From Nanobdellota archaeon (GTDB lineage: Archaea; Nanobdellota; Nanobdellia; Woesearchaeales; DATDXC01), in the NCBI GenBank assembly GCA_043826105.1, contig JBDRQV010000077.1:1-24756 (forward strand): a stretch of DNA of 24,756 nt, read 5' to 3'. Positions within the stretch are counted from its first letter, which is position 1, and every line of letters starts with the position of its first letter. This document shows, in pieces, positions 2 through 11,246 of this stretch. A program made the translations under genes and the position numbers. Below the pieces are notes generated by a model. That model was not told the DNA's origin. It saw only the letters and a program-made list of their open reading frames with translations, and ran no database searches.

Positions 2-127
2 GATTATGATCTTTACAAAAAAACTTACAGATTGACAGATAAATTCAACAAAGATATGCTTAGAATAGGATTAATGTGGTTGCAAGAATTTAGAAAAAAC
101 CCCCATGAAATAAAGAAGAATGCTTAA
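2..127 (+). CDS. 3' end of a CDS running in from the left edge (DYDLYKKTYRLTDKFNKDMLRIGLMWLQEFRKNPHEIKKNA*), function unknown
   Basis: Hand translation: open frame from base 2 to TAA at 125-127, followed immediately by a GC-rich hairpin. Confidence 0.6.
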   Translation, partial: DYDLYKKTYRLTDKFNKDMLRIGLMWLQEFRKNPHEIKKNA

Positions 128-129
128 CC

Positions 130-423
130 GGTCCCCTGAGAACCTTCTTCTTGAAAACCACCCCCCACAATCAAGATTTCAGGGGACCATTCCTTTCCTT
201 TAGGGAAAAAGAGGTGAACGAAACAAAGCCTTGCTTTGTTTCGAGATCACATGAACTGGAGAGCGAATTTGCTCCAGTTCAATTTCATACTTGAAATGTC
301 AGAAATCGAATATTTCTGATCATGCTCAAAAATATGTCTGTTAAGGACATATTTTAGACAGGCGAAAACCGGAGCGTAAAGCTTCGATATCACTGGGCTG
401 GAGAGCGAATTTGCTCCAGCCCA
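130..423. repeat. Array of about nine tandem palindromes/hairpins (REP/BIME-like element or structured ncRNA)
   Basis: Stems read directly: 130-139/179-188, 219-229/233-243, 252-261/272-281, 282-287/292-297, 299-306/312-319, 329-338/346-355, 370-375/381-386 (one G-U), 394-403/414-423; degenerate stem ~192-214. The 22-nt core CTGGAGAGCGAATTTGCTCCAG occurs at 256-277 and 398-419. Confidence 0.85.
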
Positions 424-438
424 TTCTCACTATCAAAA

Positions 439-581: not shown

Positions 582-1109
582 ATGGCAAAACTCACTGAAA
601 AAAAAGCTATTGAACTATTAAAAAAATACTCTAAAGACAAAAAGTCTTTTGATATAGTGCTGGCACATTCTAAAACAGTACAAAAGACTGCATTAGAGAT
701 CGCAGAAGATATACCCTCTATAGATACAGAATATATAATGATGGGCAGCCTGCTGCATGACATCGGAAGATTTGATACATGGCCAAATAATAATGAGAAA
801 CACGGGATAAAAGGTGCAGAGATCTTAAGGAATGAAAACCTTCCAGAATTTGCAAGATTAGCAGAAAGGCATTTAGGAGCAGGCATATCTAAAGAAGATA
901 TACTAGAACAAGGTTTAGATTTGCCTTTAAAAGACTACCTCCCCATAACAAAAGAAGAAAAGATTATCACTCATGCAGACAATCTGACAGAAGGAGCCAA
1001 AAGAATCTCTTTAAAAGAGACAATAGCAAGGTTTGAGAAAGAGCTAGGAAAAAAAGCAGCAAATAAGGTAAAGAGATTAGCAGAAGAAGTAGAAAATATG
1101 AAAAAATAA
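582..1109 (+). CDS. HD-domain metal-dependent phosphohydrolase (HDIG, archaeal TIGR00295-like)
   Basis: H...LLHDIGR, HGIKGAEIL, ERHLGAGI, HADN motifs. Confidence 0.88.
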   Translation: MAKLTEKKAIELLKKYSKDKKSFDIVLAHSKTVQKTALEIAEDIPSIDTEYIMMGSLLHDIGRFDTWPNNNEKHGIKGAEILRNENLPEFARLAERHLGAGISKEDILEQGLDLPLKDYLPITKEEKIITHADNLTEGAKRISLKETIARFEKELGKKAANKVKRLAEEVENMKK

Positions 1110-10612: not shown

Positions 10613-10684
10613 GCGTCGGTGGTCTAATGGCTATGATAGCGGCCTTCCAAGCCGTTTATCCGGGTTCAAATCCCGGCCGACGCA
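10613..10684 (+). tRNA. tRNA-Gly (anticodon TCC), no intron, CCA not encoded
   Basis: Acceptor GCGTCGG/CCGACGC, anticodon arm GCGGC-CTTCCAA-GCCGT (TCC at 10646-10648), T arm CCGGG-TTCAAAT-CCCGG, discriminator A. Confidence 0.97.
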
Positions 10685-10713: not shown

Positions 10714-11016
10714 ATGAGACAAGAGAATAGTGGAAGTGGAAACCGTGGAGGTTCCAACAGAAGGTATGGTGGCGGAGGATTTAATAGAGGAGGCAGCCGT
10801 GAAGGTGGCTTTGATAGAGGAGGCAGCCGTGAAGGTGGCTTTAATAGAGGAGGATTTAATAGGGGCGGATTTAACCAAGGTCCAAGAGAGATGCATAAAG
10901 CTATTTGTGCAGATTGCAATCAAGAATGCGAAGTTCCTTTTAAACCAACAGAAGGCAAACCAGTATATTGCAGAGATTGTTTTCAGAAACACAAACCAAA
11001 AAGATTTAATGATTAA
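10714..11016 (+). CDS. CxxC-x17-CxxC Zn-ribbon protein with N-terminal RGG-rich tail (putative nucleic-acid binding)
   Basis: REMHKAICADC-17aa-CRDCF signature; GGFNRGG repeats. Confidence 0.9.
   Translation: MRQENSGSGNRGGSNRRYGGGGFNRGGSREGGFDRGGSREGGFNRGGFNRGGFNQGPREMHKAICADCNQECEVPFKPTEGKPVYCRDCFQKHKPKRFND
10781..10875 (+). repeat. Coding tandem repeats: 30-nt unit x2 followed by 15-nt units, encoding (GGF[N/D]RGGSRE)2(GGFNR)2GGFNQ
   Basis: TTAATAGAGGAGGCAGCCGTGAAGGTGGCT (10781-10810) and TTGATAGAGGAGGCAGCCGTGAAGGTGGCT (10811-10840) differ by 1 nt. Confidence 0.9.
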
Positions 11017-11246
11017 TTTCATTATGATGCATCATGTGAACATAACTTAGTTTGTTTTGGTTATTGCAGCTGATGCATATTTTAATTCTATCTTATATTT
11101 TATATAGTCAGAGCTATATTCATCTCAATAACTTAAACGATTTTTGGTTAAACTTTACCCGATCTATTGCTGGTTTTTAATTAATTTTTAGTTATGCTGC
11201 AACATTTCATTAAATTTATATACTTCTGCTGCCTGATCAATATAAA

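What the first reader, a model, noticed from the sequence alone, without database searches (positions are those of the whole stretch)
130..423. About nine back-to-back hairpins in 300 bp of non-coding DNA
Seen: nearly every base from 130 to 423 falls in a stem-loop. These include an 11-bp perfect stem (219-243), 10-bp stems (252-281, 329-355, 394-423) and a long interrupted hairpin with a C-rich loop (130-188). This is far more structure than a terminator needs and is noticeably GC-richer than other intergenic DNA here. Inference: a modular REP/BIME-like or MITE-type element mobilised in trans (for example by a Y1/RAYT HUH transposase), or an undescribed highly structured ncRNA.
Basis: partly seen in the sequence, partly recalled or inferred. 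Interest (0 to 1): 0.65.

Follow-up and report, generated by a model that had tools for sequence, protein, structure and literature searches.

The report
Conserved archaeal RNA hairpins plus mobile palindrome
The hairpin-dense stretch is real and has two parts: an undescribed, conserved structured RNA of Woesearchaeota-type archaea, and inside it one copy of a tiny palindromic jumping element that elsewhere sits in frame inside housekeeping genes.

Summary
Window 130-423 folds far better than shuffles (z = -10.1 on +, -6.2 on -). Its GC is 0.43, against 0.17-0.32 for nine of ten other intergenic stretches.

It is not one element.

(A) 130-296 and 362-430 are single-copy and syntenic.
- Hairpin 130-188 carries a near-invariant loop (UUCUU..AACCACCCC). 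It belongs to a family found in 65 of 151 genomes of the order, with at most two hits per genome.
- All 9 stem pairs covary. 17 G.U cells place the RNA on the + strand.
- 35 of 55 copies lie directly 3' of a conserved 138-aa winged-helix-like gene. Eight or nine others have their own TTTATATA box.
- A sister hairpin with the same loop follows ftsZ.
- No Rfam family matches.

(B) 297-360 is an inserted copy of a 52-110 nt double-hairpin dyad element.
- It occurs in 68 of 151 genomes, with up to 25 or more hits each, and is absent at this spot in four sister genera.
- In five genes it is an exact 54-nt in-frame insertion, always in the same orientation and phase.
- There is no target duplication and no convincing link to Y1/RAYT transposases.

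No transcription data were available. The scan had noted only this same window before.

The parts
2..127 (+). 3' end (last 41 codons) of a conserved about 138-aa winged-helix-like gene ('wHTH-138'). It is cut by the contig end.
   Evidence: tblastn and tblastx to full-length orthologues in relatives. The family has more than 4000 clusters, all 'hypothetical', in Woesearchaeota/Nanoarchaeota. Its fold is nearest the AF_0843 family and wHTH regulators. No Pfam or NCBIfam match.
130..188 (+). Hairpin 1, the core of RNA family A. A 10-12 bp G+C-rich lower stem and a 6-bp upper stem present a loop with CUUCUUCUU and AAACCACCCCCCAC.
   Evidence: Fold. CM R2 hits 65 of 151 genomes of the order, 1-2 per genome. 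On 54 sequences, 93.8% of cells pair, 9 of 9 pairs have double-sided changes, and there are 17 G.U cells. The loop is invariant in the family.
189..217 (+). Hairpin 2 (190-195/202-207) and the conserved purine box GGGAAAAAGAGGTGA (203-217). The box contains a Shine-Dalgarno-like GAGGUGA.
   Evidence: The box lies 12-46 nt after hairpin 1 in 18 of 55 homologues, the 'long form'. No conserved ORF follows it (read).
219..251 (+). Hairpin 3 (219-243, 11 bp) and the linker AGATCACA.
   Evidence: Compensatory changes among five family members. The ATCAC-like linker recurs before each beta hairpin.
252..296 (+). Beta hairpin copy 1 (252-281, apical loop AGCGAATTTG at 262-271) and its trailing sequence. 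That sequence includes a small hairpin (282-297) whose last base belongs to element B.
   Evidence: The same 10-nt loop sits on different, complementary stems in the window (twice), in G004 (twice), in G138 and in G054. One U.G closing pair is compatible only with the + strand.
297..360 (.). Element B, a mobile double-hairpin dyad. It runs TGTC, then hairpin 299-306/312-319 (loop CGAAT), then the TCATGC centre, then hairpin 326-338/346-358, and ends in GACA.
   Evidence: It is multi-copy across the order. CM R1 hits 68 of 151 genomes, with up to 25 or more hits each. 97.8% of cells pair, and every change is Watson-Crick to Watson-Crick. It is absent from the syntenic site in four sister genera.
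361..430 (+). A diverged tandem duplicate of 219-296: hairpin 370-386, ATATCAC, beta hairpin copy 2 (394-423, same AGCGAATTTG loop), and TTCTCAC.
   Evidence: 68% identity to 219-296. It shares an identical 22-nt core, and its outer stem is fully compensated (AAC/GTT versus GGG/CCC). R2 gives a second hit at 325-441.
582..1109 (+). Downstream HD-domain gene (TIGR00295 family). It is the conserved right-hand neighbour of the RNA.
   Evidence: Pfam HD 1e-15 and TIGR00295 1.4e-39. It is found downstream on the same strand in at least 12 of 55 loci.

Best explanation
The block is a composite of two unrelated things.

(A) A conserved structured RNA on the + strand.
- Its core is hairpin 130-188. 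A G+C-rich stem that is free to covary displays a fixed C/U-rich loop (UUCUU..AACCACCCC).
- In this lineage the RNA is the 'long form'. Hairpin 1 is not followed by a U-run. It runs on into hairpin 2, a GGGAAAAAGAGGUGA box, hairpin 3, and one or more beta hairpins with the fixed loop AGCGAAUUUG.
- One hairpin-3 plus beta unit has been tandemly duplicated (219-296 and 361-430).
- The RNA is made either as the 3' part of the wHTH-138 transcript or, in other genomes, from its own TATA box.
- I infer that the fixed loops are recognition surfaces for a protein or a complementary RNA, and that the stems only present them. A sister hairpin with the same loop sits behind ftsZ, so the most likely role is post-transcriptional control or 3'-end marking of a very small gene set. 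This step is inference.

(B) A 64-nt copy of a miniature palindromic mobile element inserted between the two duplicated units (297-360).
- The element is two inverted hairpin units sharing a GCATGC centre.
- It inserts without target-site duplication.
- In one orientation and phase it is stop-free and encodes a hydrophilic 18-aa peptide. That explains why it survives inside genes.

Shown: structure, conservation, copy numbers, insertion polymorphisms.
Inferred: transcription, the loop-binding partner, and the enzyme that moves B.
For: For A:
- Synteny and conservation of 128-290 in all four same-family genomes.
- R2 hits 65 of 151 genomes, never more than 2 per genome.
- Stem covariation: 9 of 9 pairs, 52 double-changed cells, 0 of 500 shuffles as good, and slid controls at 36-64% paired against 93.8%.
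- 17 G.U cells fix the strand.
- 35 of 55 copies lie 2-72 nt after the wHTH-138 stop, plus one tandem copy at 144 nt.
- 8-9 of the 15 copies without that gene have a perfect TTTATATA box 32-70 nt upstream. None of the other 40 does.
- The same loop on an unrelated stem follows ftsZ. The strict motif is in 18 of 30 genomes, and variants are visible in most of the rest.
- Hairpin terminators are not enriched in this genome (14 found against 10.2 +/- 3.5 expected).
- SRP RNA and RNase P RNA map elsewhere.
- No Rfam match.

For B:
- Copies share about 35 nt at 85-95% identity across families, while their flanks are unrelated.
- Covariation in both hairpins.
- Census.
- An exact 54-nt, 18-aa insertion in the own-genome Lhr helicase is absent from all 11 orthologues. 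Removing it restores the orthologous codons.
- The same 54 nt, orientation and phase occur in ribosomal protein L3, an S27a-like protein, an NAD epimerase and DUF371. The segment is missing from homologues of the last two.
Against: - There is no transcript evidence. The three metatranscriptomes of the source study do not contain this organism.
- The function of the loops is unknown. A simple search for complementary targets in the genome was uninformative.
- 26 of 55 homologues are hairpin 1 plus a T-run. That is also what a plain terminator would look like.
- The covariation alignment was built by choosing the best 9-bp register for each sequence, which favours pairing.
- The genomes are related, so counts are not independent.
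- No enzyme for B was identified. A weak positive trend with Y1 transposases (odds ratio 1.83) is not excluded.
- Hit counts for B are capped at 28 scored candidates and count both strands.
Confidence: 0.7

Rival explanations
1. The whole 130-423 block is a modular REP/BIME or MITE array mobilised in trans by a Y1/RAYT transposase.
For: The hairpins are back-to-back near-perfect palindromes. One module, 297-360, really is a dispersed repeat. Y1_Tnp genes exist in 55 of 151 genomes of the order. A preprint reports RAYT as the only transposase KO with strict hits in Nanobdellota (10.64898/2026.05.13.725050).
Against: - 130-296 and 361-430 are single-copy in this genome. They are held in the same gene context across the order.
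- The own assembly has no Y1_Tnp hit.
- 10 of 20 genomes rich in B lack Y1_Tnp, and the association is weak (p = 0.09).
- The Y1 genes of G005 and G079 are not flanked by B.
- B lacks the GTAG/CGTC tag of REP superfamilies (definition in PMC3733652; sequence).
Confidence: 0.04
2. Hairpin 1 is simply the intrinsic terminator of the wHTH-138 gene, and the other hairpins are lineage-specific junk. On this reading the loop conservation has no function of its own.
For: It starts 2-72 nt after the stop codon in 35 of 55 cases. A T5+ run follows within 40 nt in 26 of 55. The stem is G+C-rich.
Against: - The loop is nearly invariant (AACCACCCC) while the stem is free to change.
- The same loop recurs on an unrelated stem behind ftsZ.
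- 8-9 stand-alone copies have their own strong TATA box.
- In the window and 17 other long forms, no U-run follows hairpin 1.
- Hairpin terminators are not a general feature of this genome.
- From established knowledge, archaeal termination needs oligo-U and not a hairpin.
Confidence: 0.12
3. The long form is a 5' leader or riboswitch-like regulator of the downstream HD-domain (TIGR00295) gene. The GAGGUGA box and the AUCAC/UCUCAC motifs would act as sequester and anti-sequester elements.
For: The HD gene lies downstream on the same strand in at least 12 loci from different families. The box is Shine-Dalgarno-like, and AUCAC resembles the 16S 3' end GGAUCACCUCCU. The modular hairpins have fixed loops, as aptamers do.
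Against: - The distance to the HD start varies from 30 to 390 nt.
- In the window the HD start codon at 582 has no SD, and a TATA-like run sits just upstream, which fits a separate leaderless transcript.
- Many homologues are followed by other genes or stand alone.
- The ftsZ-type copy is not upstream of an HD gene.
Confidence: 0.12
4. The palindromes act at the DNA level, as operator sites for the neighbouring winged-helix protein or as origin-recognition boxes of a replication origin.
For: The neighbouring gene has a DNA-binding-type fold. The stems are nearly perfect, so both strands fold. The repeated CTCCAG..TTCA motif is faintly reminiscent of ORB elements. That last point is from memory and is only a lead.
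Against: - 17 G.U cells in hairpin 1 and a U.G pair in the beta hairpin would be mismatches on the other strand.
- The stems covary while the loops are fixed, which is the opposite of a duplex half-site pattern.
- No Orc1/Cdc6 gene was found among the 13 window ORFs scanned.
Confidence: 0.05

Closest known systems
Rickettsia palindromic elements (RPEs) and other intragenic MITEs (review: PMC10969869)
   Same: Element B is a short, multi-copy palindromic element. It is found both between genes and as in-frame insertions in unrelated housekeeping genes, where it adds a conserved hydrophilic peptide.
   Different: - B is 54 nt in genes, against about 100-150 bp for RPEs.
- The host is a DPANN archaeon.
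- All five clear cases share one orientation and one phase.
- B has no sequence relation to RPEs, and no partner transposase is known.
- The 2024 review's list of archaeal MITE hosts names no DPANN lineage.
REP doublets (REPINs/BIMEs) with RAYT transposases
   Same: B consists of two similar hairpin units in inverted orientation. They can also refold into one long hairpin. There is no target duplication, and copy number is high and patchy.
   Different: - B has no GTAG/CGTC tag.
- There is no RAYT association.
- Sequence is conserved at 85-95% across many families of an order, whereas REPs are usually species-specific. That last contrast is from general knowledge.
Bacterial C-rich-loop sRNAs (RsaE/RoxS type) and 3'-UTR-derived sRNAs
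   Same: Hairpin 1 displays a fixed C-rich loop on a variable stem. It sits at the 3' end of a gene or has its own promoter, and is often followed by a U-run.
   Different: It is archaeal. No target or chaperone is known, and pairing to SD-like sequences is only a conjecture. The comparison rests on general knowledge of those bacterial RNAs and was not tested here.
Rfam 15 families, including archaeal SRP RNA, RNase P RNA, H/ACA and C/D sRNAs
   Same: A G+C-rich structured RNA island in an A+T-rich archaeal genome.
   Different: - No family reaches even E = 0.1 on the window or on 20 homologous loci.
- SRP RNA and RNase P RNA are found elsewhere in the genome.
- There is no ACA box, no C/D boxes, and no tandem G.A motif.

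Membership tests
REP/BIME with RAYT (REPtron) | Many dispersed copies of the palindrome in the same genome | tested here: not met
   For 130-296 and 361-430 there is only one copy in the assembly. Only 297-360 has other copies: 3 in this genome and up to 25 or more hits in relatives.
REP/BIME with RAYT (REPtron) | Conserved GTAG or CGTC tetranucleotide at one end of the palindrome (PMC3733652) | tested here: not met
   Units of element B are flanked by TG...GCA. No GTAG or CGTC is present.
REP/BIME with RAYT (REPtron) | Co-occurrence with, and flanking of, a Y1/RAYT gene | tested here: not met
   - Y1_Tnp is absent from G013, G076 and G054 and from 10 of 20 high-copy genomes.
- Odds ratio 1.83, p = 0.09 over 151 genomes.
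- The Y1 genes of G005 and G079 are not flanked by B.
MITE (non-autonomous DDE-type element) | Terminal inverted repeats | tested here: met
   The ends are TGTCAGAAA... and ...TTTYTGACA.
MITE (non-autonomous DDE-type element) | Target-site duplication | tested here: not met
   In the Lhr helicase, removing exactly 54 nt restores the orthologous reading T-E-E-I-K-D with no duplicated bases.
MITE (non-autonomous DDE-type element) | A full-length IS with the same ends in the same or related genomes | tested here: inconclusive
   None was seen in the loci fetched, and there was no match in IMG/VR. Whole genomes of relatives could not be scanned for distant end pairs.
RPE-like in-frame palindromic element (functional class) | Insertion inside ORFs that keeps the frame and adds a conserved peptide | tested here: met
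   - Five genes carry 54 nt in the same orientation and phase, encoding the peptide (V/M)SETQSVSEHAQKSSISD.
- The segment is absent from orthologues or homologues of three of them.
IS200/IS605-derived PATE | Hairpin ends, no target duplication, and a TnpA (Y1) or TnpB partner | tested here: inconclusive
   Hairpins and the lack of duplication are met. Y1 is absent from half of the high-copy genomes, and no TnpB hit passes the cut-off in five rich genomes.
Intrinsic (hairpin plus U-run) terminator | A stem-loop immediately followed by a U-run | tested here: not met
   In the window the tail after 188 has no T5 run. A T5 run is present in 26 of 55 homologues.
Any Rfam 15 family | Covariance-model score at or near the gathering threshold | tested here: not met
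   The best hit is 23.5 bits against a threshold of 100. Nothing was found on 20 homologous loci.
Archaeal H/ACA or C/D guide RNA / k-turn RNA | ACA box 3' of a hairpin with a two-sided pocket; or C (RUGAUGA) and D (CUGA) boxes with tandem G.A pairs | tested here: not met
   Read directly from the sequence. Hairpin 1 is followed by AUU, and its internal loop is one-sided. No paired GA/GA motif occurs in the beta hairpin.
Replication origin (ORB repeats beside orc1/cdc6) | An adjacent Orc1/Cdc6 gene and an A+T-rich unwinding element | tested here: not met
   No Orc1/Cdc6 domain was found in the 13 window ORFs scanned. The region is G+C-rich, not A+T-rich.

The most novel reading that the evidence does not exclude
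The fixed loop is one base away from the 16S rRNA 3' end: A(A/U)CACCCCC against AUCACCUCC. It marks a tiny post-transcriptional regulon in Woesearchaeales, consisting of ftsZ and the universally conserved wHTH-138 gene. The hairpin would act as an anti-Shine-Dalgarno mimic or as the docking site of a dedicated RNA-binding protein, possibly wHTH-138 itself, and would couple expression of a cell-division gene and its partner. Independently, element B would be the first archaeal counterpart of Rickettsia palindromic elements. It moves by an unknown route that leaves no target duplication, and it adds peptide segments even to ribosomal proteins.
Probability: 0.2. Interest if true: 0.8.

Novelty: new variant of a known kind. 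Interest (0 to 1): 0.66.

Why it matters
DPANN archaea are uncultured and have tiny genomes, and almost nothing is known about their non-coding RNAs or their mobile DNA.

RNA family A:
- The hairpin family has a fixed loop, a stem that is free to vary, and at most two detected copies per genome. One copy sits behind a universally conserved unknown gene and the other behind ftsZ.
- This gives a concrete, testable handle on post-transcriptional control in these organisms. It also gives a first clue to the role of a protein family with thousands of members and no annotation.

Element B:
- It shows that genomes this reduced still tolerate a selfish palindrome, even inside ribosomal protein genes.
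- The survivors share one orientation and one reading phase.
- This parallels Rickettsia, another reduced-genome lineage. It offers a system for asking how such elements move without a recognisable transposase and how they seed new protein segments.

Annotation:
- Both features are likely to be mis-called as small ORFs, terminators or gene-length variation.

Tried and rejected
- **Rfam.** Searches at gathering and permissive thresholds, on the window and on 20 homologous loci, found nothing.
- **SRP RNA and RNase P RNA.** Both identities are rejected because both RNAs map to other contigs.
- **Exact-pattern scans.** Scans of genome and metagenome collections with the loop plus 3' arm returned only the four known relatives and G+C-rich chance hits.
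- **Trans targets.** I searched for sequences complementary to the loop in the own genome and in five relatives. There was no conserved target, and the extra hits were further hairpins of the same family.
- **RNA-seq.** Three metatranscriptomes from the source study hold no contigs of this organism, so this says nothing about transcription.
- **Literature.** A search by sequence words found nothing relevant. A MITE survey notes a high MITE density in one Woesearchaeota genome but does not describe this element (PMC11602168).
- **IMG/VR.** A scan for element B gave no match.
- **TnpB.** No hit passes the cut-off in five B-rich genomes.
- **Small conserved ORF after the GAGGUGA box.** None was found on reading.
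- **Hammerhead or other self-cleaving ribozyme for B.** The GUC and CUGA words are present, but the CUGANGA core is not (CUGAGCA/CUGAUCA). I rejected this by reading, from memory of the consensus.
- **Intron-like removal of B from mRNAs.** This is unlikely, because all intragenic copies are exactly 54 nt and stop-free, while intergenic copies vary from 51 to 108 nt.
- **CM-fitted alignment A3.** It was out of register, so I replaced it with an end-anchored alignment.
- **First helicase query.** It was out of frame and was corrected.

Full report

Yes. The window is a whole contig (C77) of a 1.46-Mb, 61%-complete metagenome-assembled genome. The genome comes from groundwater. It belongs to the Nanoarchaeota/Nanobdellota, Woesearchaeota in NCBI names (record titles).

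As RNA, 120-440 folds to -120.3 kcal/mol on the + strand, against -71.2 +/- 4.9 for dinucleotide shuffles (z = -10.1). The - strand gives z = -6.2.

GC is 0.43, against 0.17-0.32 in nine of ten other intergenic stretches. The exception holds a tRNA.

**2. The block is not one thing.**

A DNA search in the own genome finds the region only once. In relatives it splits.
- Positions 125-263 match one syntenic place in each of the four genomes of the same family.
- Positions about 291-333 match many places in many families of the order.

In the sister genera, alignment of the intergenic regions shows the left part conserved. It lies between the same upstream gene and the same HD-domain gene. The multi-copy part is missing there.

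**3. RNA family A (130-296 and 361-430).**

*Conservation in the family.* The five family members share several features:
- an invariant loop AAACCACCCCCCACAAT on a 10-bp stem;
- a second hairpin;
- an invariant GGGAAAAAGAGGTGA box;
- a third hairpin with compensatory changes;
- a fourth hairpin with compensatory changes.

*Spread across the order.* A covariance model of this region (R2) finds 65 of 151 genomes sampled across the order, with one or two hits each.

*Covariation of hairpin 1.* I used an end-anchored alignment of 54 hairpin-1 sequences. The result:
- The 9-bp lower stem is paired in 93.8% of cells.
- All nine pairs show changes on both sides (52 cells).
- No shuffle reaches these values.
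- Sliding the partner by 1-3 columns drops pairing to 36-64%.
- Seventeen cells are G.U. These would be A.C on the other strand, so the structure belongs to the + strand, the strand of the flanking genes.

Caveat: I chose the register for each sequence by maximising pairing, and the genomes are related.

*The loop.* It is the most conserved part, with consensus YUUCUU, 2-5 nt, then AACCACCCC.

*Not a known RNA.* Rfam 15 has no matching family for the window or for 20 homologous loci. SRP RNA and RNase P RNA are elsewhere.

**4. Context of family A.**

- In 35 of 55 cases the hairpin lies 3' of a 138-aa gene, 2-72 nt after its stop in 34 of them and 144 nt in one tandem copy. The protein is 65-85% identical across families. 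It has more than 4000 database clusters, all unnamed. It has no Pfam or NCBIfam model. Its predicted winged-helix-like fold is nearest the AF_0843 family.
- Of the 15 hairpins without that gene upstream, 8-9 have a perfect TTTATATA box, usually ACATTTATATACTAG, 32-70 nt upstream. None of the other 40 has one. In those genomes the hairpin looks like a small gene of its own.
- Two architectures exist. In the short form (26 of 55), a T5+ run follows within 40 nt. In the long form (18 of 55, including the window), the GAGGTGA box and more hairpins follow and no T-run does.
- The beta hairpin's 10-nt loop AGCGAATTTG recurs on different complementary stems. It occurs twice in the window, twice in G004, and once each in G138 and G054, which are other families.
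- In the window, 361-430 is a 68%-identical tandem duplicate of 219-296. Its 22-nt core is identical and its outer stem is fully compensated.
- The HD gene is the downstream neighbour in at least 12 loci.

**5. A sister hairpin behind ftsZ.**

Pattern hits for the loop led to a second hairpin type. Its stem is GCCUUCAUUU/AAAUGAAGGC and its loop is A(A/U)CACCCCCAA. A small G+C hairpin and a U-run usually follow it. It lies directly 3' of ftsZ.

I fetched the ftsZ 3' flank from 30 genomes of 30 families. The strict motif is present in 18, and obvious variants are visible in most of the rest.

So the same loop is presented by two unrelated stems behind two different conserved genes. R2 never found more than two copies per genome.

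The 16S rRNA 3' end in these genomes is the canonical GGAUCACCUCCU. The ftsZ-type loop AUCACCCCC differs from it by one base. This is an observation, not a demonstrated mechanism.

Hairpin-type terminators are not enriched in the window, so these hairpins are not part of a general termination style.

**6. Element B (297-360).**

*Anatomy.* Twenty copies from seven genomes, viewed with flanks, give the layout:
- TGTC;
- hairpin TCAGAAAT / loop (often CGAAG) / ATTTCTGA;
- centre GCATGC;
- a second hairpin TCARAAA...TTTYTGA whose distal part varies from 4 to about 60 nt;
- then CA.

The second unit is the inverted copy of the first, so the element is a dyad and matches on both strands.

*Covariation.* Both helices covary: 97.8% of cells pair and five pairs have double changes. 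Every change is Watson-Crick to Watson-Crick with no G.U intermediate. That pattern is what a DNA-level palindrome, or an element read on both strands, would give.

*Census.* A model (R1) finds it in 68 of 151 genomes. The distribution is patchy, from 1 to 25 or more hits. The own genome has three copies.

**7. B is mobile and survives inside genes.**

- The copy on contig C79 lies inside an Lhr-type helicase gene. Aligned with 11 orthologues, the own protein has exactly 18 extra residues, and these are the 54-nt element. Deleting them restores the orthologous T-E-E-I-K-D with no duplicated bases.
- Copies in ribosomal protein L3 (G005), an S27a-like protein (G054), an NAD-dependent epimerase (G013) and DUF371 (G079) are also 54 nt. 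They share the same orientation and the same phase, with the element starting at codon position 2. They encode (V/M)SETQSVSEHAQKSSISD-like peptides.
- Homologues in the own genome lack the segment in the epimerase and in DUF371.
- Of the six orientation/phase combinations, three are stop-free. The one observed gives the most hydrophilic peptide (read). The regularity is therefore best explained by selection after insertion.
- Intergenic copies vary in length.

**8. What moves B?**

This is unknown.
- Y1_Tnp genes occur in 55 of 151 genomes, but 10 of the 20 genomes with the most B hits have none. These include G076 and G151 at 100% completeness and G024 at 99%.
- The 2x2 table (30/38/25/58) gives an odds ratio of 1.83, p = 0.09.
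- Two Y1 genes inspected are flanked by other hairpins, not by B.
- No TnpB hit passes the cut-off.
- No copy is present in IMG/VR.
- The lack of target duplication and the hairpin ends resemble single-strand (HUH-type) transposition. That is resemblance only.

**9. Comparison with the known.**

*Element B.* It works like Rickettsia palindromic elements and REP doublets.
- It fails the defining REP/RAYT features, both the tag and the RAYT link.
- It fails the MITE feature of target duplication.
- A 2024 review lists archaeal MITEs only from Sulfolobus, Halobacterium, Haloquadratum, Desulfurococcus and a few others. It treats frequent in-frame insertion as a Rickettsia speciality (PMC10969869).
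- A large survey noted a very high MITE density in one Woesearchaeota genome without describing the elements (PMC11602168).

*Family A.* It resembles C-rich-loop sRNAs and 3'-UTR-derived sRNAs of bacteria in layout only. It is not in Rfam.

**10. Verdict.**

- I am confident that the region is composite, that hairpin 1 belongs to a conserved covarying family, and that 297-360 is an inserted mobile palindrome.
- I am much less sure what the RNA does. My best guess is a loop-presenting RNA element that acts post-transcriptionally on, or together with, the wHTH-138 and ftsZ transcripts.
- No expression data could be obtained.

Noticed in passing
L127:395-470 (G003), L128, L126, and L133-L160 downstream of ftsZ: In most genomes of the order examined, ftsZ is followed by a hairpin with stem GCCUUCAUUU/AAAUGAAGGC and loop A(A/U)CACCCCCAA, then a small G+C hairpin and a U-run. 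The loop matches that of window hairpin 130-188 and is one base away from the 16S 3' end.
   Followed up: partly
L052:616-669 (G005), L054:2899-2952 (G054), L051:3046-3099 (G013), L058:3056-3109 (G079), L002:1501-1554 (own contig C79): Element B sits in frame inside ribosomal protein L3, an S27a-like protein, an NAD-dependent epimerase, DUF371 and an Lhr helicase. It is always 54 nt, in the same orientation and phase, and adds an 18-aa SETQSVSEHAQKSSISD-like segment.
   Followed up: yes
L021:137-241 (G013:C2): Two copies of element B lie head to tail, sharing the junction GA(T/C)A-TGTC.
   Followed up: no
L081, L087, L095, L075, L105 (G007, G136, G070, G071, G025): Hairpin 1 of RNA family A occurs as two tandem copies 90-200 nt apart in several genomes.
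   Followed up: no
L009:1646-2062:- (P0001); window 2-127: The 138-aa winged-helix-like protein upstream of the RNA is 65-85% identical across families and has more than 4000 database clusters. It has no name, Pfam or NCBIfam model.
   Followed up: partly
L063, L072, L079, L083, L088, L096, L103, L107 (32-70 nt upstream of the hairpin): A near-identical promoter-like box, ACATTTATATACTAG, precedes stand-alone copies of the hairpin RNA. It may be the strong stable-RNA promoter consensus of this order.
   Followed up: partly
window 10769-10873: There are three to four tandem 30-nt repeats (GTGGCGGAGGATTTAATAGAGGAGGCAGCC-like) just after the tRNA at 10613-10684, inside overlapping ORFs 10714-11050. 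They possibly encode a Gly/Arg-rich repeat.
   Followed up: no
order-wide: Y1 (IS200/RAYT-type) transposase genes are present in 55 of 151 genomes sampled from the order, with up to 7 per genome. In G005 the gene is flanked by hairpins unrelated to element B.
   Followed up: partly
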